64,000 nt of DNA from Bacteroides sp. (GTDB taxonomy: Bacteria; Bacteroidota; Bacteroidia; Bacteroidales; Muribaculaceae). Each line of letters opens with the position of its first letter. The stretch's first letter is position 1. Positions 45,446 to 59,600 of this stretch are shown piece after piece. The notes under the pieces are model-generated. The model searched no databases and had not been told where the DNA came from. It saw nothing but the letters and a program-made list of their open reading frames with translations. A program made the position numbers and the translations under genes. The DNA is taken from positions 26,133 through 90,132 of the forward strand of contig JAAVEO010000039.1 of the NCBI GenBank assembly GCA_014801225.1, written 5' to 3'.

Positions 45446-45823
45446 ATGACACACTTGAAAGCATCGGAAACCACCCTATTCTTCAATACGAGGGATGAGA
45501 TGATAAAGGTAAAATTGGAAAAAGTGGCTTATTTCGAATCGGATTCCAATTACTGCCATGCCGTATTCATCAACGGCGCGAAGGCCACACTCCTCACAAG
45601 CCTGGTAAATATCGAGCAACTGATTTCCGAACGATTCCGAGGTGAGGACCCTTTGTTTATCCGCATCGGGAAACGCTTCATTGTTAATCGCCGTTTCATT
45701 TTTCAGATCAATATTCCAAAACAGAAACTCATGCTGTCCGATTTTGTATCTCCACTGATTTTGGAATTATCAATCTCAAAAGAGGCTTTGAAAAACCTCA
45801 AACATCTTTACACATCCAACTGA
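45446..45823 (+). CDS. Stand-alone LytTR DNA-binding protein
   Basis: VAYFESDSNYC and FIRIGKRFIVN, the LytTR F.R.HRS.IVN pattern; no receiver domain. Confidence 0.85.
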   Translation: MTHLKASETTLFFNTRDEMIKVKLEKVAYFESDSNYCHAVFINGAKATLLTSLVNIEQLISERFRGEDPLFIRIGKRFIVNRRFIFQINIPKQKLMLSDFVSPLILELSISKEALKNLKHLYTSN

Positions 45824-45876: not shown

Positions 45877-46590
45877 ATGGAAATTATAATTGGCCGACAA
45901 GGCACTCAGAAAACAAAAATTACAGATCCTACCGTCAGCCGGCAACATTGTAAAGTAACGGTAAATCCCGACGGAACCTATACCGTAGAAAACCTTAGCC
46001 AACACGGCACTAAAATTGACGGACGCGATATCTTGAAAGCTACGGCTCAATCCGGCAGCCGTATCCAATTGGGAAGCTCATATTCCGCCGTACTTGCCGA
46101 CCTTATCGGGGCGACACCTCAGCAGAGATGCACAGCTTCCGACCGACGAATCTCAACATCGGAAACCTCCACTCCATCATCTCAATCTTCCCAAAAGGAA
46201 ATTAAGACTTTCAATATAGCTCATCTCAAACGAGTATGGGAGGATTTCAATCAGACCAATATTGAGAAATCGAATGAGCAGCGAAAAATCAATCTTATCC
46301 GTACCGGAATGGGTATCTTCACAATGTGTGCCATGCCGTTGATATATTTCTGCGGACCCGTAGGATACGCAATGACAGCAATAGGTATTTTAGGTAATAT
46401 CTACAGCTTCACGGGTATGAAGAATGCAGAGACGGCGGAAGACAGACAGCGACGTCAGGATGAGTTTGACGATGCATGGGTATGTCCGAATCCGGCTTGC
46501 GGACGATCGTTACTCGCAAAAAACTATAAGATGCTTCTGCGCAATCATAAGTCATGTCCCTATTGCAAATGCAAGTATGTGGAAAAGTAA
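45877..46590 (+). CDS. FHA-domain membrane protein with a C-terminal Zn finger
   Basis: IIIGR, VSRQH and HGT (FHA); Ser/Thr-rich linker; hydrophobic hairpin; CPNPAC...CPYC. Confidence 0.88.
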   Translation: MEIIIGRQGTQKTKITDPTVSRQHCKVTVNPDGTYTVENLSQHGTKIDGRDILKATAQSGSRIQLGSSYSAVLADLIGATPQQRCTASDRRISTSETSTPSSQSSQKEIKTFNIAHLKRVWEDFNQTNIEKSNEQRKINLIRTGMGIFTMCAMPLIYFCGPVGYAMTAIGILGNIYSFTGMKNAETAEDRQRRQDEFDDAWVCPNPACGRSLLAKNYKMLLRNHKSCPYCKCKYVEK

Positions 46591-47311
46591 ACTCTTTTTA
46601 GCCATTCTGGTGGGTATTCTCCCTCTGCTTGCCCGAGGAGAGACGTATGTGGTATGTGTAGGGATCGGGAAGTATGCAAATCCTAAGGTGAAGACTCTTA
46701 TCAAGACGGAGAAAGATGCTAAAGCCGTGGCTGATTTCTATAAGAACGGTACTCCTAATGTAATAACCGTCACAGGAAGATATGCCACCAAAACAAGAAT
46801 TCTCCAATCACTCGCCGACCAATTCGGCAGGGCCAAAGCCGGAGATAAGATTATATTTTATTTCAGCGGGCATGGCTATCCGGGTGGGTTCTGTCCGTAT
46901 GAAATGCAAAAGATAGAGGACGGTCTCACTTATGCGGATGTGATAAAGGTAATGAGTCGGTCGAAAGCCAAAGATAAATTCATTTTTGCAGATGCCTGCA
47001 ACAGCGGCGCAATCCGACAGAGCAAGACAACCCCAAATCCCCAGCCGGGCAATATTCTGCTTTTCCTATCATCACGTGGTAATGAATACTCTATAGAATC
47101 TCCTCTCCTTTCCAATGGATATTTCACCAACTTCCTTCTTCATGGTCTCCGGGGGAAGGCGGATACCAACGGAGATAAGGCAATCACAGCTAAGGAACTT
47201 TATAATTATGTTTCTTCGGGAGTAACGGAATTATCGAAGGGTAAGCAACATCCTGTAATGTGGGGTAATTTTCCCGACAATCTCGTCATCGTGAAATATA
47301 ACAAGAAATAG
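46577..47311 (+). CDS. Caspase-family (peptidase C14) protease with a signal peptide
   Basis: Start at ATG 46577 gives MWKSKLFLAILVGILPLLARG. Catalytic dyad in FSGHG and DACNSG; ADTNGDKAIT and QHP motifs. Confidence 0.9.
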   Translation: MWKSKLFLAILVGILPLLARGETYVVCVGIGKYANPKVKTLIKTEKDAKAVADFYKNGTPNVITVTGRYATKTRILQSLADQFGRAKAGDKIIFYFSGHGYPGGFCPYEMQKIEDGLTYADVIKVMSRSKAKDKFIFADACNSGAIRQSKTTPNPQPGNILLFLSSRGNEYSIESPLLSNGYFTNFLLHGLRGKADTNGDKAITAKELYNYVSSGVTELSKGKQHPVMWGNFPDNLVIVKYNKK

Positions 47312-47567: not shown

Positions 47568-48791
47568 ATGCAGCTTAAGGAAGGATCAGAGCTTCAGAAC
47601 GGAAAATACAGGATAATCCGTGTCCTCGGGCAGGGAGGATTCGGAATAACCTATCTTGCGGAAAATATTTATTTCGAAAAGATGGTCGCTATTAAGGAAT
47701 TCTTCCCAAAGGATTTCTGCGGACGCGACAATACGAGCCATCTCACTCTCGGCACGCAGAATAATGCCGAGACTGTAGAGAAACTTAAGGCCCGCTTTTT
47801 GAAAGAAGCCAGAAATATCGCCAAACTTGATCATCCCGGTATCATTAAGATTCACGATATTTTCGAGGAGAACAATACGGCCTACTATGTGATGGATTAT
47901 ATCGAAGGGGAGAACCTCAACGTGATGATGAAGTATGACGGACCTATGTCGGAAAAGAAGGCTGTTGGCTATATCACCAAGGTGGGTGAGGCGCTGGAGT
48001 ATATCCATTCGCGTCAGATGACTCATTTCGATGTCAAACCTGCGAACATCATGGTGAGGAGGGCCGATAACATGCCAATCCTCATTGACTTCGGACTCTC
48101 CAAGCAATATGACGCTCAAGGGGATGCCACCTCCACACTTATGCAGGGAGTAAGCCATGGATATTCTCCCATTGAGCTTTACAATGCCGAAGCCATCACC
48201 AGTTTCTCTCCACAAACCGATGTCTACTCCCTGGCAGCGACTCTTCTCTATCTCCTTACCGGCTCCACACCTCATACCGCTTCCCAATTAATCGAGGAAG
48301 GTCTTAATCTCCCTGCCGGAATAAGCCCTTCAATTGCAAAAGCCATTGAAGAAGGTATGGCTTTCTCCCGTACGAAACGCCTCCCCTCCGTCTCAGCCTT
48401 TCTTAGCCTACTAAAGGGCATTCCAAATCCAAGTGTTTCGACATATCAAGAAACTAAATCTCCCGCACCTCCCTACAGTGAGGAGACTCGTATTATAACC
48501 GATAACACCCGAACTTCTACAGAGAATTATTCCTCCGATTATAATTACTCAAATAGTAAGCCTACCAAAAATAAAGAAGATAATAGTTTTCTTTATGCGA
48601 TAATAGGTGGACTCATTGCAATCATAGTTATATTCATAATAATTCAATCTACGGGACACTCAAATTCCGAAGATTCACCTTATGCAGTAGATAGTGATAC
48701 TGTCGTTGCTTATGAAGTTGTTGACGATACTGTGTGGGTTTTGCCAACCTCTGATTCTACTGCGGATGTTGAATATACTCCATATGATTAG
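47568..48791 (+). CDS. Hanks-type Ser/Thr protein kinase 1 (single TM, short acidic outer tail)
   Basis: LGQGGFGITY, VAIKE, HFDVKPAN, DFG, GYSPIE and DVYSL motifs; TM FLYAIIGGLIAIIVIFIII. Confidence 0.95.
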   Translation: MQLKEGSELQNGKYRIIRVLGQGGFGITYLAENIYFEKMVAIKEFFPKDFCGRDNTSHLTLGTQNNAETVEKLKARFLKEARNIAKLDHPGIIKIHDIFEENNTAYYVMDYIEGENLNVMMKYDGPMSEKKAVGYITKVGEALEYIHSRQMTHFDVKPANIMVRRADNMPILIDFGLSKQYDAQGDATSTLMQGVSHGYSPIELYNAEAITSFSPQTDVYSLAATLLYLLTGSTPHTASQLIEEGLNLPAGISPSIAKAIEEGMAFSRTKRLPSVSAFLSLLKGIPNPSVSTYQETKSPAPPYSEETRIITDNTRTSTENYSSDYNYSNSKPTKNKEDNSFLYAIIGGLIAIIVIFIIIQSTGHSNSEDSPYAVDSDTVVAYEVVDDTVWVLPTSDSTADVEYTPYD

Positions 48792-48845
48792 TAATAAACA
48801 TACAGAAAACGTCAACGATTATTAACACCTTTCCACCAAATTATT

Positions 48846-50846
48846 ATGCAGCTTAAAGAAGGTTCAGAGCTTCAGAACGGTAAATATCGGATTCTCCGTA
48901 TCCTCGGGCAGGGAGGATTCGGAATAACCTATCTTGCGGAGAATATTTATTTCGAAAAGATGGTCGCTATTAAGGAATTCTTTCCAAAGGATTTCTGCGG
49001 ACGCGACAATACGAGCCATCTCACTCTCGGCACGCAGAATAATGCCGAGACTATCGGAAAACTTAAGGCCCGCTTTTTGAAAGAGGCCAGAAATATCGCC
49101 AAACTTGATCATCCCGGTATCATTAAGATTCACGATATTTTCGAGCAGAATAATACGGCCTACTATGTGATGGACTATATCGAGGGGGAGAACCTTAACC
49201 AGATGGTGAAGCGTGACGGTCCTATGTCGGAAGAGAAGGCTGTTGGCTATATCACCAAGGTTGGAGAGGCGCTGGAGTACATCCATTCGCGTCAGATGAC
49301 TCATTTCGATGTAAAACCTGCCAATATTATGGTGAGGAGTGCCGATAACATGCCAATCCTCATCGATTTCGGCCTCTCCAAGCAATATGATGCCCAGGGG
49401 GATGCCACCTCCACACTTATGCAGGGCGTAAGCCACGGCTATTCACCTATTGAGCTTTACAATGCCGGAGCCATCACCAGTTTCTCTCCACAAACCGATG
49501 TCTACTCCCTGGCAGCCACTCTATACTACTTAATCTCAAATACAATTCCTCCTCATGCAACAGTTTTAATAGAAGAAAACATTACTTTTCCTATTGGTTT
49601 TCCAATGAATCTACAGAAAGCTCTATCTAAAGCTATGTCTTCTGCGAGAAAGAATCGCTATGAGAGCGTCTCTATATTTGTTAGCGAAATAAAGACTATG
49701 GAGAAGTCCGAAGATACTCAAATCATTCAGCCTACCCCAACACACGGTAATAATACTCCAAAGATAGAAGCTAAGGCTAATATTAGACTAAATCAAAAAA
49801 TAGAGACGCTTAATCTCCATAATGATGGTTATGAAACGAAAGTTTCAAAAGACACAAATATAAAAAAAACTAAATCGTATTCTATAATATTGGGGATAAC
49901 CATTATTGTTGTACTACTTTTCATATCTTTTTTCAACATAGAATCCACTCAGGACACAGAGATATCTACAAACTTAGTGCCAACTAAGGAAAATATTATT
50001 TCATTAGAGGAACAAATGAATATGAGTAGTCCTGTCATTGTGGAGGCACCAAATTATAATACCTCCAATTATTATTCATCTATTCCAATACCACAGATAA
50101 AGAAAGTAAATCAAAAAAAACTTATCGAATCAGAGTTAATATATTCAGATGAATATATTAAAGAATGGATTTCAAGAAACGCAATAGAAACTTATTTACC
50201 ATTATTCAACGCCTCACCATGTCGCGATGATTATAGTGACATATTAGAATCTCTATGTGATCTACCAGTTCCTTTAGTAATTAATGGTCAAAAACTCAGA
50301 TTTTGGAAACAAGATGACCAATACAACTATTTTGCTTACGAAACAGAATCTTACTCTGAACCGAAACCTATTCGACTATTTATTACCAATAAAGAAAATA
50401 ATAAAGTTCTATTTGATTATAAATTTGATAATTATATTTATCCTCCCCAATTCATAGAATCAAATAAAAATTTAATTAATTTTGAAATTAGCAATTTTAC
50501 TCTTCAAAATAAAATATTGTATTTTTCATTTTATCATCGAACATATGCCGTTTGTTCACACGGAATGAATGGCTATATTTCGGCATTGGAGACGGAATCT
50601 AATAAAATAAAATGGCTGAGCAAATCTTTAGTCTGCAATGCTAATTTTATAATTGATGGGGACTATATCATCACAGGATATGGTTTCACCGACGAACCTG
50701 ACTTTCTTTATATTCTTGATAAATATAATGGTAGTATTATATCCCAAACTCCTCTTGCTAATGGTCCCGAAATCATTGGAATAAATAAGAATCACATATT
50801 TGTGCGAACATATTCTTATGAATATGATTTCATCATTAAAAAATAG
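48846..50846 (+). CDS. Hanks-type Ser/Thr protein kinase 2 (single TM, large outer domain, possibly a PQQ-like propeller)
   Basis: Kinase domain nearly identical to kinase 1; TM IILGITIIVVLLFISFF; AT-rich C-terminal region with ISALETESNKIKW and ITGYGFTDEPDFLYILDKYNG. Confidence 0.94.
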   Translation: MQLKEGSELQNGKYRILRILGQGGFGITYLAENIYFEKMVAIKEFFPKDFCGRDNTSHLTLGTQNNAETIGKLKARFLKEARNIAKLDHPGIIKIHDIFEQNNTAYYVMDYIEGENLNQMVKRDGPMSEEKAVGYITKVGEALEYIHSRQMTHFDVKPANIMVRSADNMPILIDFGLSKQYDAQGDATSTLMQGVSHGYSPIELYNAGAITSFSPQTDVYSLAATLYYLISNTIPPHATVLIEENITFPIGFPMNLQKALSKAMSSARKNRYESVSIFVSEIKTMEKSEDTQIIQPTPTHGNNTPKIEAKANIRLNQKIETLNLHNDGYETKVSKDTNIKKTKSYSIILGITIIVVLLFISFFNIESTQDTEISTNLVPTKENIISLEEQMNMSSPVIVEAPNYNTSNYYSSIPIPQIKKVNQKKLIESELIYSDEYIKEWISRNAIETYLPLFNASPCRDDYSDILESLCDLPVPLVINGQKLRFWKQDDQYNYFAYETESYSEPKPIRLFITNKENNKVLFDYKFDNYIYPPQFIESNKNLINFEISNFTLQNKILYFSFYHRTYAVCSHGMNGYISALETESNKIKWLSKSLVCNANFIIDGDYIITGYGFTDEPDFLYILDKYNGSIISQTPLANGPEIIGINKNHIFVRTYSYEYDFIIKK

Positions 50847-51274
50847 ATATAATATATTACCTTATACCTACAGAACCTCCAGTAATCTTCTTATCAGCCT
50901 ATTTATACTTATTGTGTTCATCATACCTATTAGCAATCATTGAATTAAACATCCTGTTCAATGATGCATCGAGATGAGGATGACATTTTAAATTATTGAA
51001 TATGTGCCACGGTAAACATATTCAATATAATTTCGCGAAAACAATGGTGATAATAAGTTTTATTATCTTTTCCATTGCCCTTCTATAGTGGGCCAAAGCA
51101 TTAGTATATGCAACTATACAGTTAGAGGAGTAGTGGTACAAATTCCAAATGGACAATTCGATACACAACTTAAAAGCACTTGTCGTTGCTTTAACAAAAT
51201 GGTTGTTTTCAATTTTCTTTGACTTGAACGTATTTATTTTCTACAAATAATACAATAAAATTAAGTTTAGTATT

Positions 51275-51312
51275 AATAGTAACAACACATCCGTGGATGT
51301 GTTGTTACTATT
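51275..51312. repeat. Perfect 18-bp inverted repeat
   Basis: AATAGTAACAACACATCC-GT-GGATGTGTTGTTACTATT. Confidence 0.9.
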
Positions 51313-51664
51313 TTAAATTAGCAATCCCCTAATTCTCAAAATTTTTCTAAGAAGTGTAGTCCGATCCAAAACAAAAATAAAATAACAGATAACTGAATAA
51401 TTAAAAATAACGTTATATAGACTTCACAGTTAAGAGCCAAACTTAAGAGCTTTCATCTTCCACTCAAACAAACAAACCATCCAAAATTAGAACAATTTCA
51501 AGGCTCTGTATGGAGAATTGTTATGCTATATAAGGCAAAGGTTCGATAAACTTAACTATATCCAACTTAAGTACATTACTAAAATTTACTTATAATTACA
51601 AATCTATAAATATAATATCAATAACTTTTATACACTAAGTATGTTTTATTAAAAAAATAATACA

Positions 51665-52555
51665 ATGGAATTCATTTTCAAACGTTATTGTCTTACACAT
51701 ACTTATCTCTCCATATATTCAGGACAAGCAACGAAAATAAATATCACAAAGGCGCAAAGAGCAGCCTTGAAAAATGGATACTGGAATGGCTCCACCCATT
51801 CATTCCGGATGCGATGCTTCATGGTATTGGGCAAAGCAAATGGTCTGAGCAACGCCGTCGCCGGAGAACGGGCCGTACAAACGTACCAGCGGGTAATGCA
51901 TTGGGTAAAAAGGTTCCAGACCGATGGAATAGCCGGCCTGAGGAACAAGTCCGGGAATAGCCGCAAGCGCATCATCAGTACCAAGGAAGACACGGAGGCT
52001 GTAAGGGAAGCAATCCGACAGCATCGCCAGAGTGTATCCAAAGCCAGAGCCGCCTGGGAGGAAGCCACCGGGAAATAAATCAAGGACGGAGCCTTCAGGA
52101 ATTTTTTATCAGCGATGGCGCAAGATTTGGACGTATAAGGAAACGTCCGAAGGAAATCCCCTCACCGCAGGAGTACGCTTATAAGAAGGAACTCTTGCAA
52201 GAGCTTGAACATCAATGGGAGTCGGGTCTCATTAACTTGTATTACGGTGATGAAAGCCATGTATGCACCGAAGGGTATGTGTCTTATGCATGGAAATTTA
52301 AAGATGAGGATTTCTGTGTGCCCGTATATAAATGCGGAAGACTCAATATCTTCGGAATGATTGACCGCAATTGTGTCTATCATGGTTTCACCACCGAGCA
52401 GAACATAAACTCCGACAGGTTCATCGAATTTATGGAGCACTTCTCTCTTGGCATCCGCAAGGAGACTGTGGTCGTTCTGGATAACTCCACAGGCCACAGG
52501 AGCCGCACAAGGTAAAGAACTGTCTTCAAAAATGGAAGGAAAGAGGCATAATTGA
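51665..52555 (+). mobile_element. Degenerate IS630-family transposase (pseudogene)
   Basis: HTH part (RMRC...WVKRFQTDGIAGL) with a premature TAA at 52076; T-run junction near 52101; DDE part YYGDESH...VLDNS. It frameshifts near 52510 and is truncated before the LPPYSPELNPIE motif. Confidence 0.85.
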
Positions 52556-52562
52556 GCATCGT

Positions 52563-52826
52563 TTGCCCACAACAAAGCAATTTGAGGAACTGATTGAACA
52601 TTGCAGCTGGTCAACTTTTGAGGAGGATGGTATGCACGGCTATAAGATAATCGGTCCGAATGGTAATATCTTGATGATGCCATTAGGTGCGCTCAACCGT
52701 TATCTTTCGGCTGAATGCCTTAAGCCCGATTCCCTCTATTATTACTTCCTTTATCTCGGAGAATATACTCACACACTCGCCAAAGGGGTACCCACCGAGG
52801 CTAATATTTGGACAGTAAAAGAGTAA
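52563..52826 (+). pseudogene. Orphan C-terminal fragment of a DUF1566-like/lectin-fold domain
   Basis: PTTKQFEELIEHCSW...GMHGYKIIGPNGNILMMP resembles the Bacteroidales 'PT..E..EL...C.W....G..GY...GPNGN.IFLP' domain. It has no ATG start and abuts the IS relic. Confidence 0.55.
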
Positions 52827-52974
52827 AAATATAGCAACAATAGCACTGAAAAAAAACTGCAACAAATCTTTATATAATGATTCCGTAAGTTTTTACCGAA
52901 CTATTGGATAATAAGAAATGGCAATTATTCGTTTCAATAATAATCGGTTTAATTACGTATAATTTATTAAAATT

Positions 52975-53181
52975 ATGAACGCAACCATATCTATGGATGG
53001 ACTTTGGATAATTATTGATTCTTTGTCCACAAAAAATAAGAAATGGCTCATTGATAAGTTACAGCTCTCTTTGTCATCGTCAAAAGAAGCTAAAGAGATA
53101 CTGTCAGGAATAGCTCAATCAGCAAAGGAGGCTAAAGAGGGAAAAACTTTTCCCTTAGATACATTATGGGATCAGCTATAA
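52975..53181 (+). CDS. Putative antitoxin
   Basis: 68 aa overlapping the RelE-like gene; LSTKNKKWL and EAKEGKTFPLDTLWDQL tail typical of RelE-associated antitoxins. Confidence 0.65.
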   Translation: MNATISMDGLWIIIDSLSTKNKKWLIDKLQLSLSSSKEAKEILSGIAQSAKEAKEGKTFPLDTLWDQL

Positions 53182-53519
53182 TTTTCGACTATACTCCCGA
53201 ATTTCTGAAATCAGCTAAAGTCCTTTCCAAGCGATACAAATCATTTGCTGATGATTTAAAGTCATTATGTGAAGAGATTGTTAGGAATCCGAACCTTGGA
53301 GATGATTTGGGAAGTAATATCCGAAAAATAAGGATGCCAATTAAGTCTAAGGGGAAAGGTAAAAGAGGTGGAGCTCGAGTAATTTCACTTTCTATGGTAA
53401 TAGATGAAGAAAAGTCAAAGGTGACGTTTCTGTATGTCTATGACAAAAGTGATATCGCTAACGTTTCGGACAAAAAGATAAAACAAATTATCTTGAACAA
53501 TGAATTACCTATAGAATAA
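53166..53519 (+). CDS. RelE/HigB-2-family toxin
   Basis: FLKSAKVLSKRY, GDDLG, RKIRM...SKGKGKRGGARVI and YDKSD motifs. Confidence 0.88.
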   Translation: MGSAIIFDYTPEFLKSAKVLSKRYKSFADDLKSLCEEIVRNPNLGDDLGSNIRKIRMPIKSKGKGKRGGARVISLSMVIDEEKSKVTFLYVYDKSDIANVSDKKIKQIILNNELPIE

Positions 53520-53749
53520 TCTATATTTTAATTTTAGTTCCGCAGACTCACTTAAGGGGCAGATTTCAGTTATATTGGTCCTTTTGGATCGGTCGTATCT
53601 TGCTATGTGACCGAACTAAAAGGACATTACTTTATGTTAGATCTGTTGTCATCAAGTAATTCTTTCCGTAGGTAAATCTATTTCATCATCCAATCCAATA
53701 GTTTAATCATTCAGGAGTGAAAACTTTTGGCTTTCAGAGAAACCTATTT

Positions 53750-53757
53750 TATCTTTG
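53750..53757 (+). promoter_or_regulatory. -7 promoter element TATCTTTG
   Basis: Exact TAnnTTTG match 27 nt upstream of ATG 53784. Confidence 0.6.
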
Positions 53758-53783
53758 CCGCAAAATCAATACTCTCTGAAATT

Positions 53784-54767
53784 ATGGATAACGAAACTAC
53801 TCGCCTCATCAATGATGGAGGCAATTGCAATACTGAAGGTGCTTCTACCGGTAAGGATTCTCAGGCTACGAACAATTGCAGTACAACTCAGGATTCCTTT
53901 GCGTCTACCCAGCAGGAAAATACGGATGCAAAGAGCGAAAAGAAAGGGAGAACCGTGGCGGCAGGTGTCGGAGGATTTGTAGCCGGAGCTGCTGTCGGTG
54001 TAGGCGCTACAGCCTATGCCACTTCCAAGACGGAAGAAATACCTGTGGATGAAGAAGTTAAAGAGGATGCTTCCCAAGATACGGATATCCCTTCTCCGGA
54101 ACAAGCTATCCTCGCTAATGATGAGGGTATACGCTACGCTCACGTGGATGCCGACAACTTCAACGACGCTTTCTCTCAAGCTCGCGAACAGGTAGGACCC
54201 GGAGGACTCTTCGAATATAACGGCAAACTCTATGGCACATACACTGCCAATGAATGGAATGAAATGTCAATGGAGGAGAGAGCCGATTATCAAAACCGTG
54301 TGAATGAAGTGGCTCCGGCTCATCATTCCGATTCCGCACATGTTGCAACCAATGTGGATGAGGTATCCTTACACGATCATTCTCATGCCGTCGCAGCTCC
54401 GGAAGTTATCCCCGCTAACGCTGAGATGATCTCCCCCGAACCTGCGGACAATGAGATTCGAGTGCTCGGAGTTGAAGCTGTAGAAAATCCCAACGGGGAT
54501 GTGATGAATGTAGCACTCATAAAATGCGAGGGAGATCATGTGCTGCTCGTAGATGTAGACAATAGCGGCACAATTGACGTTGCCATCCATGATGACAACT
54601 ATGACGGCCAGATTCAGCCGTCGGAAGTATACGATATTTCGGAAGCCGGTATGCAGGTGTCCGATCTTCTGCAAGCCCAGGCCGCACAGGAGGGTCAGAC
54701 TTTCACTGCATCGGCCGATGATATGCCGGATTATATCAACGACTCCGACTCCATAATGTCGGTATGA
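53784..54767 (+). CDS. Acidic hypothetical protein with a Gly/Ala-rich hydrophobic segment and DxDxDG-like loops
   Basis: Starts MDNETTRLI; VAAGVGGFVAGAAVGVGATAYA; FNDAFSQAREQVGPGGLFEYNGKLYGTY; DVDNSGTID and DDNYDGQI. Confidence 0.8.
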   Translation: MDNETTRLINDGGNCNTEGASTGKDSQATNNCSTTQDSFASTQQENTDAKSEKKGRTVAAGVGGFVAGAAVGVGATAYATSKTEEIPVDEEVKEDASQDTDIPSPEQAILANDEGIRYAHVDADNFNDAFSQAREQVGPGGLFEYNGKLYGTYTANEWNEMSMEERADYQNRVNEVAPAHHSDSAHVATNVDEVSLHDHSHAVAAPEVIPANAEMISPEPADNEIRVLGVEAVENPNGDVMNVALIKCEGDHVLLVDVDNSGTIDVAIHDDNYDGQIQPSEVYDISEAGMQVSDLLQAQAAQEGQTFTASADDMPDYINDSDSIMSV

Positions 54768-54771
54768 TTCT

Positions 54772-55317
54772 ATGGGAAAGATATTTATAGTATGTCCCGC
54801 ATGCCGGCAGCAGTTATCGTTCAATGAAGTGCCGGGGTATCAGAACATGGTGATCGAGTGTCCTAAATGTCACTTCAAAGCCAATGCCAGCGTATATCAG
54901 AGTGGCTCCCAGGCCCGAGGTGTCCAAGGCTTCGACGATATGCCTACGCAATTGGTGATGCCACCCGCTACCGGGAAGGATATCGGGCAAATTCGTGTAA
55001 AATCCACCAACGAGATACAATTTCTCAAACCGGGACGCAACATCATCGGGAGGCGCGCCCAAACGGGCACGGCCGACATCAAGATAAGCACGGATATGTA
55101 CATGAGCCGTCAGCACGTACTTATTGACGTTGTGAAAAAAGGGACCGGTTATGAACATCATCTTGTGGAAATAAATTCAAAAAATATCGTTAAATTAAAC
55201 GGTAGCCCTATCCACCGAGGGGATATTCTTATTCTTAATTTCGGCGATACGATGACACTCGGCACTACCGACATCATTTTGGAATCGTGTGATGACGAGG
55301 CCACCCGGATAGTATAA
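54772..55317 (+). CDS. Zn-ribbon plus FHA-domain protein
   Basis: CPAC...CPKC; NIIGRR, MSRQH, NSKN and GDTMTLG (FHA). Confidence 0.88.
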   Translation: MGKIFIVCPACRQQLSFNEVPGYQNMVIECPKCHFKANASVYQSGSQARGVQGFDDMPTQLVMPPATGKDIGQIRVKSTNEIQFLKPGRNIIGRRAQTGTADIKISTDMYMSRQHVLIDVVKKGTGYEHHLVEINSKNIVKLNGSPIHRGDILILNFGDTMTLGTTDIILESCDDEATRIV

Positions 55318-55327
55318 CAATCTTACC

Positions 55328-56428
55328 ATGATCACAATCAGACAACCCCTTTGCTTCTCGGAAATAGGACGCAAAGATAATCAAGAGGATTTCCTTTATC
55401 CGCAACATGCCGATACTGCCACACGTGTATTTATCATGTGTGACGGCATGGGGGGCCACGACAACGGAGAAGTGGCAAGTCGCACGGCAGCCACAGCTCT
55501 TGGAGAATACCTCTCATCCTGTCGTAAGGTTGACCTTGATGTATTCGATACGGGACTCTCTTTGGCTTACGATGCTTTGGACGGTATAGACACCAATTCC
55601 GCAAAGAAACCGGGCACAACCATGACCTGTCTATGCCTTAACGATGACTCATATCTTGTGGCCCATATAGGCGACAGCCGAATTTATCATATTCGTCCGA
55701 GTCTTTTCAATAAGTCTACAAAACGAGGGGGAATACTGTATCAATCATCCGACCATTCTCTTGTGAACGATCTTCTGAAAGCCGGAGAACTGACGGAGGA
55801 GGAAGCTCATCTGTTTCCTCATAAGAATGTGATCACCCGTGCCATGCAGCCGCATCTTGACAAACGCTATTCTGCTGATGAATATGTGTTTGACGATATA
55901 GAGGCGGGAGATTATTTCTTCCTGTGTTGTGACGGAGTGCTGGAACAACTCTCCAATGAAGACTTATGTGAGATCCTCGCAAATGATAGTCTCAATGACA
56001 AGCAGAAACTCACTGCAATAAAGAGTATATGCGATGGCAAAACACGTGACAACTATACGTGTTGGCTCATTCCGATTGATGAAGTGGAGATAGCGCGCAA
56101 ATCGGAGAATTCCATGATTATTCAGGCATCCTCAGAAGAGAATGAAGATACCGAGGCTGATTTGGAAGATACTGCGGGGAATATTCTGCCAAAGGATTCA
56201 AGTAACGCCTCATCCTCTTCTCATCCAAAAACAGTTAAGGATAATCTCAAAGGGTTGCTGAAGCAGATGGCCGGGATTTCCACCGGATCAGCCAAGAAAA
56301 AATGGCTGACTTGGATATTTATCGTCGTTGCTCTCGGCATCGTGGTTTGGGGTGGCATATTTGCTTTCAATACCTTCTTTGCTTCCAATAAAGAGACACC
56401 GATACAAAAACACACCCGAAAACAGTAG
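55328..56428 (+). CDS. PP2C/PPM-family Ser/Thr phosphatase with a C-terminal TM
   Basis: GRKDNQED, CDGMGGH, GTT, HIGDSR, DHS, NVITRAM, CCDG and DN motifs; TM WLTWIFIVVALGIVVWGGIFAF. Confidence 0.95.
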   Translation: MITIRQPLCFSEIGRKDNQEDFLYPQHADTATRVFIMCDGMGGHDNGEVASRTAATALGEYLSSCRKVDLDVFDTGLSLAYDALDGIDTNSAKKPGTTMTCLCLNDDSYLVAHIGDSRIYHIRPSLFNKSTKRGGILYQSSDHSLVNDLLKAGELTEEEAHLFPHKNVITRAMQPHLDKRYSADEYVFDDIEAGDYFFLCCDGVLEQLSNEDLCEILANDSLNDKQKLTAIKSICDGKTRDNYTCWLIPIDEVEIARKSENSMIIQASSEENEDTEADLEDTAGNILPKDSSNASSSSHPKTVKDNLKGLLKQMAGISTGSAKKKWLTWIFIVVALGIVVWGGIFAFNTFFASNKETPIQKHTRKQ

Positions 56429-56694: not shown

Positions 56695-57342
56695 CTATGG
56701 CTTGGGCATTAGGCGGAGCCATTTGCGGTAGCCGAGGAGGGCTATCAGGGTGTAGAGGGCGTAGAGGATGGCGTAGAAAGGGATGCCTTTGTAGAGGTAG
56801 AGTACGGCGCTTACTATGTCGACGATGAACCATATAAGCCATTGCTCTACGTATTTGCGGGCTAACATCCAGAGACCTATGATGGAGAGAGATGTGGTGA
56901 AGGAGTCGGCTATGGGCACTGTGGAGTCGGTGAAGTGGAAGAGTAGCCACCATATCCCGGCCCACAGTAATCCGGTAGCCATTACTATTCCTCCCCATAC
57001 GGGAAAGGGCGTCCGCGTGATTTTCAGCTCATCTTTATCCTCAGCCGGTTTATCTGTTGGGGATTGAGATGCGGACTTCGCCTCGGTCACTACGGATTTC
57101 TCCGTGGGCCGCCCGGAGGAGCTTTTGCGACTCCAGGCTATGAAGCCGTAGACGGCTATCAAGAGATAGTAGATGTTGATGGCGAAGTCGGCATATAGCC
57201 CTTTGGAAAAGTAGATCCACATGGATATGGCCGGCATCACTACGGAGGCCAACCATACTTTGCGGTCGGCATGGTATTCCCACCAGAGATACAGTAAGCC
57301 TACGCAGAATCCGAGTATCTGAAGAATGAGTGAGAATGTCAT
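56695..57342 (-). CDS. pnuC: PnuC-family vitamin transporter (likely thiamine, PnuT)
   Basis: GLYAD, DSFTT, LARKYVEQWLIW...D and YKG motifs; lies downstream of a TPP riboswitch. Confidence 0.92.
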   Translation of the reverse strand: MTFSLILQILGFCVGLLYLWWEYHADRKVWLASVVMPAISMWIYFSKGLYADFAINIYYLLIAVYGFIAWSRKSSSGRPTEKSVVTEAKSASQSPTDKPAEDKDELKITRTPFPVWGGIVMATGLLWAGIWWLLFHFTDSTVPIADSFTTSLSIIGLWMLARKYVEQWLIWFIVDIVSAVLYLYKGIPFYAILYALYTLIALLGYRKWLRLMPKP

Positions 57343-57347
57343 CAGCT

Positions 57348-59600
57348 TTAGAATTTGAATGAGAGGGTAGCCATAACGTTTACGGGAGCCTGCGCGGCAT
57401 ATCCGGCATAGCGGTAGATTACGGGAGTGTCGCCATCCATATAGTAGCCCGCCCCGGCATAACCGTTGCTGAAGTATTTATTATTGAAGATGTTGTAAAC
57501 ACCAACGCCCACTTTCAACTCTTTGATTCCGCCGATCTTATGGAACAGATAAGCCAGATGAAGATCGGTGACGAAGTATGCTTTGAGCATAGCTTCGGAA
57601 TTACCGGCATTTGTAAGATACTGTTTTCCTACATATCGGCTCTGTAGCGAAGCCTCAAAATCTTTCACATAGAAATTGAAACTGTTGCTGAAAGTAAGAT
57701 CCGCAGAGAAGGCTATAGGAGTATCACCAAGATTGAATGTGATGGGATTGGTCCATTCATCTTCGTAGATATATTCCGTGAAGTCTTTGATCCGGTTGCG
57801 AGAGAGAGTAAGAGTGAAATTCCAGTCAAACCATCGGCAGGGACGTGCACCAAGTTCGAACTCCACACCCATACGGTAGGAATCAGGCACATTGACACTC
57901 ACGGGATTGCCTGTATCCGAGAGCTCGCCGGTAGCTACAAGCTGGTCCTTATAGAGCATATAGTAGAGATTGGCGCCTGCGGAGAAGATAGAGTTGGCAA
58001 ACTTATACCCGGCCTCGAAATCGTTGAGGCGTTCCGCTTCCGGGCGTCGTCCGGGATCTCCGTCGGTAAAATTATCACGGGTCGGTTCTTTACGGGCTAT
58101 AGCCCAAGAGATATATGCGCGATGAGGGCCCGATGTGAAGTTTACTCCAAGTTTGGGGTTGAAGAAATTCCAACGGCGATTGACGTGGAGAGCATAAGGC
58201 GCACCCGTACTCCAATCGAAATTGTCGCTCGCTCCGCTGATAGTGTAGCGTATATGGCGGTATTGGAGATCGGCAAAAGCCGAGAATCGAGAGTCAATAT
58301 CATAGTTGGCACGCAGGAAGAGATTGGCATCTGCCTTATGGCCGTTGTTGTCATAATAAGGCTGGAGAGGATTCAACGGCCCCTCATAATTACGCACCCA
58401 TTTCACCTGACCGAAATGATGACCGTAGAATACAGTGGAAGCTACTCCGAGAGTAAGGTCGATACGTTCCCCTGCATAATTGACATTGACATACCCTCCC
58501 CCGAAATGATTGCGATTATTCTTCAGGCGGATAAGATCGGATTTCTTCACAGTCTCTCCGGCGGCATTGACAAAGGGAGAGAGGCCATACTCCTGCAGAG
58601 TACGTCCTGTCTTGTACTGGTCATAATAGCCGTCGTCGTATGTATAATGCGCGGCTGCATTGAGATGCAGCCCATCGGCGAGACGCTGAGATAGAAGAAG
58701 CTGGAAATGATATTGTGCGTAATTGTCGTACTGGTCGGGATAATAGGCTGTCTTACCATCGGAGTCGATATACTCTCCGCAAGGATTGTAACGACGCCCG
58801 TATTTCTCCATATCGGCAAGTGAGGCGTAATCCCACGCCATGTAAGTGCGTTCCTTTCCACCGAAAGAGAGTAAACGTAAGAGAGTACCGCCCGTACGGA
58901 GAGCGGCCTGCCCGAAATAGCTCCAGAGCTTGGAGGATGCCCTGTCGATATAGCCATCCGAACCAAGATGAGAGAGACGCATATCAAAACTCCATTTGCC
59001 ACCAAGCAAACCGGTGCCGACACGGATTGCCTCGCGATTTGTATTGTAGGAACCGTAAGCGCCATCCACTTCAGCGTAAGCCTCACGCGAAGGAGTATCC
59101 GTAATCATATTCACGCTCGCACCGAAGGCACCGGCACCGTTGGAAGACGTTCCGGCACCACGCTGCACCTGCACATCTCTCAGCGAAGAGGCAAGGTCGG
59201 GCATATTTACCCAGTATACATTATGACTCTCGGGATTATTGATCGGGATACCGTTGGCGGTGACATTAATACGCGAACCATCCGTACCTCTCACACGCAT
59301 GGAAGTATATCCTATACCGGCTCCCGCATCGGAAGTGACCGTAATTGAGGGAGTCATCTGAAGAAGATAGGTCATATCGCGACCGTCATTGTCGCGATTA
59401 AGCTCGGATTTACTCAGATTGGAGAAAGCCACGGGAGTCTTGGCCGTGGCACGGTTGCCCAACACTTCCAGTTGGGCCAAAGTAACGGAAGGGATAGTGT
59501 CTACAAACGTTGTATCGACGGAAGAGAGATTGGAGTCCGCAAATACGGGGAAAGCGCCCCCTGCGATGAGCAGAAGCGACGCAAGGCAATATTTTTCCAT
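57348..59600 (-). CDS. TonB-dependent receptor, probable thiamine transporter
   Basis: Plug SDAGAGIGYTSMRVRG...RINVTANGIP...VYWVNMPD...QRGAG; terminal F; under a TPP riboswitch. Confidence 0.92.
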   Translation of the reverse strand: MEKYCLASLLLIAGGAFPVFADSNLSSVDTTFVDTIPSVTLAQLEVLGNRATAKTPVAFSNLSKSELNRDNDGRDMTYLLQMTPSITVTSDAGAGIGYTSMRVRGTDGSRINVTANGIPINNPESHNVYWVNMPDLASSLRDVQVQRGAGTSSNGAGAFGASVNMITDTPSREAYAEVDGAYGSYNTNREAIRVGTGLLGGKWSFDMRLSHLGSDGYIDRASSKLWSYFGQAALRTGGTLLRLLSFGGKERTYMAWDYASLADMEKYGRRYNPCGEYIDSDGKTAYYPDQYDNYAQYHFQLLLSQRLADGLHLNAAAHYTYDDGYYDQYKTGRTLQEYGLSPFVNAAGETVKKSDLIRLKNNRNHFGGGYVNVNYAGERIDLTLGVASTVFYGHHFGQVKWVRNYEGPLNPLQPYYDNNGHKADANLFLRANYDIDSRFSAFADLQYRHIRYTISGASDNFDWSTGAPYALHVNRRWNFFNPKLGVNFTSGPHRAYISWAIARKEPTRDNFTDGDPGRRPEAERLNDFEAGYKFANSIFSAGANLYYMLYKDQLVATGELSDTGNPVSVNVPDSYRMGVEFELGARPCRWFDWNFTLTLSRNRIKDFTEYIYEDEWTNPITFNLGDTPIAFSADLTFSNSFNFYVKDFEASLQSRYVGKQYLTNAGNSEAMLKAYFVTDLHLAYLFHKIGGIKELKVGVGVYNIFNNKYFSNGYAGAGYYMDGDTPVIYRYAGYAAQAPVNVMATLSFKF

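What the first reader, a model, noticed from the sequence alone, without database searches (positions are those of the whole stretch)
48480..55317. Shared acidic-T-[RQ]-[IL]-[IV] motif in four island proteins: a putative private FHA docking code
Seen: EETRII (kinase 1 juxtamembrane, 48480-48497), EDTQII (kinase 2, 49710-49727, in otherwise unrelated sequence), DNETTRLI (N-terminus of the 53784 protein), and DDMPTQLV and DDEATRIV (linker and C-terminus of the Zn-FHA protein). Established: FHA domains read pThr with selectivity at the +3 residue, often Ile/Leu/Val, and GarA/OdhI are switched by binding their own phosphorylated tail. Inference: these are the phosphosites that wire the island together, and the Zn-FHA protein may autoinhibit or polymerise through them.
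Basis: partly seen in the sequence, partly recalled or inferred. Interest (0 to 1): 0.8.

Follow-up and report, generated by a model that had tools for sequence, protein, structure and literature searches.

The report
Threonine docking motifs, Bacteroidales kinase operon
Four proteins of a gut-Bacteroidales signalling operon carry the same short, conserved threonine motif in floppy tails; it matches a known bacterial phospho-docking pattern and likely lets the operon's kinases recruit and chain its small phosphothreonine-reading protein, with lineage-specific variants of the motif.

Summary
All five motifs are at the stated places: 5 of the genome's 31 narrow-pattern sites, 0.12 expected. They are conserved in relatives: Zn-FHA T59 120/120, T178 118/120, protein X T6 117/120. 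38 of 49 operon kinases carry the motif in unrelated linkers, against 5.1 in shuffles. The genes form a LytTR / membrane FHA / caspase-like / kinases / X / Zn-FHA / PP2C operon. Its Zn-FHA occurs in 57 of 301 family genomes.

The grammar is not private: Glu at -2 with hydrophobic +2/+3 is the published GarA/OdhI/DgcB self-peptide pattern (PMC6733907). What is new is that relatives use variants. The +3 residue is aliphatic in this clade and polar in a second clade. The second-clade pattern held in 22 fresh kinases and follows the Zn-FHA clade on the kinase tree, but only 3 independent pairs exist. T178 lies too close to its own FHA fold to bind in cis, so chaining is likelier than GarA-type autoinhibition. 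The membrane FHA lacks the conserved Asn. Phosphorylation and binding are inferred, not measured.

The parts
45446..45823 (+). LytTR-only DNA-binding protein, first gene of the operon; candidate transcriptional output; no motif
   Evidence: Pfam LytTR E 7.5e-7; leads the operon in most related loci
45877..46590 (+). Membrane FHA protein (FHA, hydrophobic hairpin, C-terminal Cys cluster); has G-R and S-R-x-H but Q-H-G where most FHA domains have x-N-G
   Evidence: Pfam FHA E 4.5e-13; alignment and hydropathy
46577..47311 (+). Caspase-like (C14) protease with intact His and Cys motifs and a hydrophobic N-terminus that looks like a signal peptide
   Evidence: Pfam Peptidase_C14 E 2.8e-15; SGHG and ACNSG motifs, hydropathy
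47568..48791 (+). Ser/Thr kinase 1 (H-F-D, non-RD), one membrane helix, short outer tail
48480..48497 (+). Motif EETRII in the kinase 1 juxtamembrane linker; T307 codon at 48486-48488
48846..50846 (+). Ser/Thr kinase 2, kinase domain 92% identical to kinase 1, unrelated linker and outer domain
49710..49727 (+). Motif EDTQII in the kinase 2 linker; T291 codon at 49716-49718
53784..54767 (+). Protein X: N-terminal motif, disordered tail, Gly/Ala-rich hydrophobic stretch (53952-54017), two small acidic folded domains; no Pfam, NCBIfam or clear PDB match
53787..53810 (+). Motif DNETTRLI of protein X; T6 codon at 53799-53801
54772..55317 (+). Zn-ribbon / linker / FHA protein with intact pocket (G93 R94 S112 R113 H115 N138); the likely reader
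54934..54957 (+). Motif DDMPTQLV in the Zn-FHA linker; T59 codon at 54946-54948
55291..55314 (+). Motif DDEATRIV at the Zn-FHA C-terminus; T178 codon at 55303-55305
55328..56428 (+). PP2C phosphatase with a C-terminal membrane helix; likely eraser; no motif in this clade (0 of 20 tails)

Best explanation
The five sites are conserved short threonine motifs that likely act as kinase-written, PP2C-erased docking sites for the operon's Zn-FHA protein, which would then be recruited to the kinase linkers and the protein X tail and chain onto other Zn-FHA copies in trans. Shown: the motifs, their conservation in otherwise drifting linkers, the operon, the intact Zn-FHA pocket, and clade-specific variants of the motif. 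Inferred: the membrane kinases sense an outside signal through their variable outer domains, phosphorylate their own linker Thr and X T6, and Zn-FHA binds these. Phosphorylation of its own T59 and T178 gives each Zn-FHA one pocket and two ligands, enough for a branched, membrane-tethered assembly (TIFA- or Rv1747-like rather than GarA-like). The output is unknown; the LytTR protein, the Zn ribbon and the caspase-like protease are the candidates.
For: Conservation: T59 120/120, T178 118/120, X T6 117/120, while neighbouring linker positions fall to 22-66% modal identity. T59 column is at least 90% Thr among 100 Zn-FHA sequences of 26% mean column identity, with G93, R94, N138 invariant and S112, R113, H115 near-invariant. 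Motif behaviour: present in 38 of 49 operon kinases against 5.1 in shuffles (max 12), at offsets of 6-69 residues within the linker, and tandemly duplicated in 6 of 120 X homologs. Co-loss: 4 of 4 orphan Zn-FHA proteins have D in place of the pocket Ser and lack the Asn; none has an acid-T-x-hydrophobic site; 3 of their 4 genomes gave no match to kinase 1 and the fourth one weak partial match. The varying position is +3, the FHA specificity position: I/L/V in 38 of 43 clade-A kinase sites, polar or small in most sites of clade-B genomes. In 22 fresh linkers, 15 had acid-T-x-hydrophobic (null 2.4) but only 1 had the clade-A form. On the kinase tree the two sets interleave (5 changes) and +3 follows the Zn-FHA clade in 47 of 52 scored rows. 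Geometry: FHA termini lie opposite the peptide-binding loops (PMC6509490 passage), and the tail Thr sits 7-9 residues after the last strand in 28 of 29 proteins that have one. Precedent: the DgcB/GarA/OdhI pattern and PknB juxtamembrane binding to FhaA (PMC12077195 passage).
Against: No phosphorylation or binding data. The same grammar is a kinase substrate preference (PknA: acidic upstream, Leu/Val at +3). A conserved linker Thr in PrkC works in kinase trans-activation, and StkP juxtamembrane phosphorylation matters in a genus without FHA proteins, so conservation alone does not need an FHA reader. The kinase-tree test has only 3 independent pairs, sign test p 0.5. In clade A itself +3 of T178 is Ala in 58% of close homologs. 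The third clade (27 Zn-FHA, pocket His replaced) has no acidic motif above chance, and its own variant did not transfer across proteins (9 of 27 Zn-FHA, 6 of 13 kinases picked their own model). 33 of 88 Zn-FHA relatives show no acidic linker site. The membrane FHA of this clade mostly lacks the conserved Asn.
Confidence: 0.62

Rival explanations
1. The motif is only the kinases' substrate and trans-activation signature (like PrkC Thr290). It is phosphorylated, but it acts on kinase activity or charge, and the FHA proteins read something else, such as the activation loop.
For: PknA motif has acidic residues upstream and Leu/Val at +3 (PMC7164672 passage). Conserved juxtamembrane Thr is widespread and needed for PrkC trans-activation (bioRxiv 2025.11.01.686061). 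Kinase activation segments also differ between clades, most clearly in clade S.
Against: Close kinase relatives carry different +3 residues according to the Zn-FHA clade of their genome. 0 of 14 scored non-Bacteroidota plasmid kinases carry the two-hydrophobic motif, although two have an acidic T-x-x-I variant. The motif also occurs in two non-kinase proteins.
Confidence: 0.2
2. Zn-FHA is a GarA/OdhI-type switch: phospho-T59 folds back into its own pocket and turns off binding to a target. The other sites are secondary.
For: Same grammar as the GarA/OdhI/DgcB self-peptides. T59 is the most conserved site. It lies 13 residues before the FHA fold, which may just reach.
Against: T178 cannot reach its own pocket by the terminus geometry. 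In 16 of 55 relatives with a linker site the spacer is 12 residues or fewer, down to 5. The motif's presence in kinases and X has no role in a pure cis switch.
Confidence: 0.1
3. The motif is a phosphorylation-independent strand that pairs with a beta-sheet edge of some operon protein, or a degradation or processing signal.
For: T-x-aliphatic-aliphatic is strand-prone. The model of X draws residues 6-8 as a strand at low confidence.
Against: Thr is fixed, with Ser almost never tolerated (1 of 120 in X, 0 in Zn-FHA). The Ser version is not enriched in Zn-FHA linkers or tails (8 and 1 of 113, nulls 6.8 and 3.0). It always travels with kinase and FHA genes.
Confidence: 0.06
4. Chance matches, or one ancestral stretch copied between neighbouring genes.
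For: The narrow pattern was fitted after the fact. 26 other sites exist in the proteome.
Against: Conservation and shuffle tests in relatives and the fresh test set. The four host proteins share no other similarity around the sites.
Confidence: 0.02

Closest known systems
DgcB (Bdellovibrio), GarA and OdhI: FHA proteins with a self phospho-peptide
   Same: Glu at -2 and hydrophobic +2/+3 around the Thr (PMC6733907 section 9); canonical FHA fold (structural matches to FhaA, OdhI, GarA, DgcB at E 1e-7 to 1e-5).
   Different: Here the sites are in a linker and at the extreme C-terminus, two per protein, behind a Zn ribbon. The same motif is shared with several membrane kinases and a membrane protein. 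No enzyme domain or metabolic target is evident.
PknB juxtamembrane - FhaA (Mycobacterium) and PrkC Thr290 (Bacillus)
   Same: Conserved Thr in a disordered kinase-proximal linker, reported as an FHA docking site or an activation site.
   Different: Non-RD kinases without PASTA repeats, 1-4 per operon, with exchangeable outer domains (LRR, Sel1, MORN, FGE-sulfatase, TonB_C, cyclophilin-like). Best NCBIfam kinase scores are far below cut-off (155 vs 450 bits).
TIFA (animals) and Rv1747 (Mycobacterium): pThr-FHA driven oligomers
   Same: One FHA plus phospho-Thr in a floppy segment leading to higher-order assembly (TIFA from search-listing abstracts; Rv1747 from passages of PMC8339232).
   Different: Analogy only; no homology outside the FHA fold, and no assembly was shown here.
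ArnA-ArnB (Sulfolobus)
   Same: Zinc finger plus FHA adaptor under kinase control (abstract of PMC12852372; passages of PMC6509490).
   Different: No vWA partner in the operon; bacterial, membrane-associated partners.
Kinase / PPM / FHA / one-helix membrane components of T7SSd-e (Garrett et al. 2024)
   Same: Same four kinds of part encoded together (passages of PMC11217815).
   Different: No secretion ATPase or WXG100 gene was annotated in the loci examined; Gram-negative host; adds LytTR and a caspase-like protease.

Membership tests
pThr-binding FHA domain (Zn-FHA) | FHA beta-sandwich fold | tested here: met
   Pfam FHA 30.3 bits over cut-off 20.7; model pLDDT about 90 in the domain; Foldseek top hits are FHA domains
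pThr-binding FHA domain (Zn-FHA) | Conserved G-R, S-x-x-H and Asn pocket residues | tested here: met
   G93 R94 S112 R113 H115 N138, invariant or near-invariant in 100 sequences
pThr-binding FHA domain (membrane FHA) | Conserved G-R, S-x-x-H and Asn pocket residues | tested here: inconclusive
   G-R and S-R-x-H present; the Asn column is His here, and Asn in only 2 of 15 non-duplicate clade-A rows
Bacterial FHA ligand motif (GarA/OdhI/DgcB type) | Thr with Glu/Asp at -2 and hydrophobic +2 and +3 | tested here: met
   4 of 5 sites match; T59 has its acids at -3/-4. The hydrophobic -3 and Ser +1 of the published pattern are not shared.
Bacterial FHA ligand motif (GarA/OdhI/DgcB type) | The Thr is phosphorylated and bound by an FHA domain | not testable with these tools
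   Needs MS and binding assays
GarA/OdhI intramolecular switch | Phosphosite in an N-terminal tail able to fold back into its own pocket | tested here: not met
   N-terminus is a Zn ribbon; sites are 13 residues before and 7 residues after the fold; termini lie opposite the pocket. T59 in cis is not excluded.
PknB/PrkC PASTA kinases | RD kinase with PASTA repeats | tested here: not met
   H-F-D catalytic loop; no PASTA Pfam hit; NF033483 155 of 450 bits
Known anti-phage kinase systems (MADS, PD-T4-6, BREX PglW) | Whole-protein match and the partner genes of the system | tested here: not met
   Only kinase-domain similarity; MAD6 122 of 460 bits, PglW 52 of 990; X, Zn-FHA and membrane FHA have no PADLOC hit
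TIFA-like phospho-driven oligomer | Phosphorylation-dependent intermolecular pThr-FHA assembly | not testable with these tools
   Only the geometry and valency argument

The most novel reading that the evidence does not exclude
Gut Bacteroidales run a family of receptor-kinase signalosomes built like animal and plant immune signalling: arrays of non-RD receptor kinases with swappable sensor domains, a Zn-FHA adaptor that polymerises on its own phosphothreonines, and a caspase-like protease. Different lineages have evolved mutually insulated docking dialects in which the FHA pocket and the +3/-2 residues of motifs in three separate proteins change together.
Probability: 0.2. Interest if true: 0.8.

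Novelty: new variant of a known kind. Interest (0 to 1): 0.52.

Why it matters
Ser/Thr signalling in Bacteroidales seems little studied: four literature searches found no description of this operon. Its Zn-FHA is present in about one in five genomes of this gut family (57 of 301), and a reduced operon is annotated in Parabacteroides distasonis, which can be grown. The motifs name the likely phosphosites in advance. The natural +3 variants offer a ready-made swap experiment on how FHA specificity and short motifs co-evolve. The motif grammar itself is known, so the value lies in the system and its dialects.

Tried and rejected
Complex prediction of two Zn-FHA copies gave no answer (score 0.00, mark 0.42); it is not evidence either way, and no phosphate could be modelled. 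No RNA holder was listed for the region. Protein X: no Pfam or NCBIfam family, atlas hits only to hypothetical Bacteroidota clusters, no Foldseek match at E <= 0.001, best structural Z 5.2 at rmsd 3.6 over 79 residues, so its fold is unassigned. In the Zn-FHA model T59 is the only linker residue between 46 and 66 outside the pLDDT<50 segments; too weak to use. 'Generic to all Hanks kinases' was not supported: 0 of 14 scored non-Bacteroidota plasmid kinases had the motif (21 fetched, 7 not parsed), and none of the four other kinase-like proteins of this genome showed it in a post-kinase linker. A positive motif for clade S was only weakly recovered. A search for outside substrates by motif plus disorder proxy gave 16 non-island sites with no obvious candidate. 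Identity with the GAP1-N2 or vWA conflict systems of PMC7159879 was not supported by the passages seen. Two Prisic papers on the mycobacterial kinase motif were not held. Earlier-findings look-ups by words, place and sequence were empty; one search gave only analogous Clostridia and other cases. No supplements were read; supplementary gene-neighbourhood tables of PMC7159879 could list this operon.
Full report
Observation. The window lies in a 2.09 Mb, 68%-complete genome whose closest operon relatives are mostly titled Muribaculaceae or other Bacteroidales. In my own gene set (1,569 ORFs) the narrow pattern has 31 sites, 5 in the island against 0.12 expected; a wider pattern gives 4 against 0.82. 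Because the narrow pattern was fitted to these sites, I rely on relatives instead.

Anatomy. The genes read LytTR, membrane FHA, caspase-like protease, kinase 1, kinase 2, an inserted transposase remnant and RelE-type pair, protein X, Zn-FHA, PP2C. Both kinases keep the catalytic motifs but have H-F-D instead of H-R-D. Kinases and PP2C each have one membrane helix; X has a Gly/Ala-rich hydrophobic stretch after a basic patch. If X spans the membrane there (inferred), all five motifs face the cytoplasm. The X and Zn-FHA sites lie in or beside low-confidence, disordered parts of the models. Only these two FHA genes were found in the assembly.

The operon is a family. The same order recurs in the 22 close loci as far as contigs reach. 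The Zn-FHA profile matched 57 of 301 genomes of the family and 14 of 401 of the order. Nearly all of 60 further loci showed the same neighbours. A shorter version is annotated in Parabacteroides distasonis. Kinase number varies from none to four per locus, with LRR, Sel1, MORN, FGE-sulfatase, TonB_C or cyclophilin-like C-terminal parts (64 proteins scanned).

The motifs are real short linear motifs. Among the best 120 homologs of each, Zn-FHA T59 is kept in 120, T178 in 118 and X T6 in 117, while nearby linker positions drift. Six X homologs carry the motif twice in tandem. In 100 Zn-FHA sequences of 26% mean column identity the T59 column is at least 90% Thr, though an aligner can pull Thr together in a disordered linker. 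The alignment-free count gave 27 of 113 linkers and 25 of 113 tails (150 representatives, 113 parsed), against 7.2 and 12.0 in shuffles; the Ser version was at chance. 38 of 49 operon kinases have the motif after the kinase domain (null 5.1, max 12; one kinase not parsed; some loci are near-duplicates), at offsets from 6 to 69 residues.

Is the code private? Not in grammar. The DgcB paper (PMC6733907; passages and sections 7 and 9 read) describes Glu at -2 and hydrophobic +2 and +3 as shared by the DgcB, GarA and OdhI self-peptides, with +3 pointing into the FHA cleft. PknA-dependent sites show acidic residues upstream and Leu/Val at +3 (PMC7164672, passages). A conserved juxtamembrane Thr is widespread in Hanks kinases (bioRxiv 2025.11.01.686061, passages and section 5), and PknB's binds FhaA (PMC12077195, passages). 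It is not universal either: 0 of 14 scored non-Bacteroidota plasmid kinases had the two-hydrophobic form (21 fetched, 7 not parsed), though two had an acidic T-x-x-I. Unchecked notes from this scan report similar motif arrays in gut Clostridia.

Dialects. A tree of the FHA domain alone (89 rows, motif columns excluded, FastTree) gave clade A with the window (22 rows, support 99), clade S (27 rows, 96, pocket His replaced by Ser or Cys), clade B (14 rows, 94), a Parabacteroides-type clade and four orphans. With patterns chosen by eye on these data: the acid-T-x-aliphatic-aliphatic form is in 17 of 18 X tails and 30 of 42 kinases of clade A, but 1 of 11 and 0 of 3 in B, and 0 of 21 and 0 of 14 in S. 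Clade B keeps acid -2 and hydrophobic +2 (Zn-FHA 11 of 14, X 10 of 11) without a +3 preference. Clade S lacks the acidic form (4 of 27, 2 of 21, 1 of 14, all at chance) but has T-x-x-hydrophobic in 16 of 21 X-like tails (null 4.5). Models trained on X tails assigned 20 of 21 clade-A and 9 of 14 clade-B Zn-FHA proteins correctly, but only 9 of 27 in clade S; models trained on Zn-FHA did worse.

A fresh test came from clade-B genomes, whose kinases mostly lie outside the operon (10 of 10 genomes have at least one). From 30 of the 62 matches I obtained 29 linkers. Of the 22 from genomes whose only Zn-FHA hit is clade B, 15 had acid-T-x-hydrophobic (null 2.4), 14 with a polar +3, and 1 had the clade-A form. 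The 7 linkers from two genomes holding both B and S operons showed no enrichment. On a tree of 66 kinase domains, A and B kinases interleave (5 changes) and +3 follows the Zn-FHA clade in 47 of 52 scored rows; 14 rows were unscored. Only 3 independent pairs stand on well-supported branches, so co-evolution is suggested, not shown.

Reader and geometry. Zn-FHA has the full pocket and an FHA fold closest to FhaA. The four orphan Zn-FHA proteins have a degenerate pocket and no acid-T-x-hydrophobic site, and their genomes gave no or one weak match to kinase 1. That is one clade, so one event. The membrane FHA of clade A mostly lacks the conserved Asn, so it is a doubtful reader. FHA termini lie together on the side opposite the binding loops (PMC6509490, passage). 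The tail Thr is 7-9 residues past the last strand in 28 of 29 cases, too short to reach back by my estimate (domain length recalled as about 30-35 angstrom; no coordinates were available). T59, 13 residues before the fold, is borderline. One pocket and two ligands per molecule favour chaining, as for TIFA (search-listing abstracts only) or Rv1747 (PMC8339232, passages).

Mechanism. Shown: motifs, conservation, operon, pocket, variants. Inferred: signal-driven kinase activation, phosphorylation of the five Thr, recruitment and chaining of Zn-FHA at the membrane, reversal by PP2C. Unknown: signal and output. The link between non-RD kinases and immune receptors is recalled from eukaryotic work and comes from no call. 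PADLOC and NCBIfam gave only generic kinase, caspase and phosphatase similarity.

Novelty. The parts and the grammar are known. The operon and its dialects were not found in print in four searches of an incomplete library; the one paper does not describe it in the passages seen. Verdict: a new variant of a known kind, with a good experimental handle. Interest 0.52.

Noticed in passing
window 51665-52515: Split IS630-type transposase remnant (HTH and DDE_3 pieces) inserted between kinase 2 and protein X, in a low-GC stretch (about 30% at 49600-51600).
   Followed up: partly
window 52963-53519: Small ORF followed by a RelE-family gene, a likely toxin-antitoxin pair inside the operon; related loci carry other cargo at this position (DUF2971, YhcG-like nuclease).
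   Followed up: partly
window 47568-48245 and 48846-49523: The two kinase domains are almost identical for about 226 residues and then diverge abruptly, suggesting recent duplication or gene conversion with swapping of linker and sensor parts.
   Followed up: partly
window 53952-54023: The hydrophobic stretch of protein X ends in A-Y-A, and A-x-A is common there in homologs. It may be a long signal peptide with a phosphorylatable n-region rather than a membrane anchor; untested.
   Followed up: no
L059:5377-5631, L046:8810-9100, L049:8011-8304: In Parabacteroides-type operons a small, very acidic 85-97 aa protein replaces X between the two FHA genes; two of these three carry a D-D-T-x-M-L site.
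   Followed up: partly
L052, L054, L056, L057: Orphan Zn-FHA genes with a degenerate pocket (D-R-R-H) sit in housekeeping surroundings without kinase genes: a possible phosphorylation-independent repurposing.
   Followed up: partly
G574, G599, G582, G517, G421: These family genomes hold 9-13 paralogous kinases scattered outside the operon, implying one Zn-FHA hub for many receptors.
   Followed up: partly
G000:C31:106-6820: Two near-identical kinase-like proteins fused to BspA-like leucine-rich repeats elsewhere in this genome, without the motif in their linkers.
   Followed up: no
window 56695-59600: PnuC-like transporter and TonB-dependent receptor on the minus strand flank the operon (recognised from sequence, not searched).
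   Followed up: no
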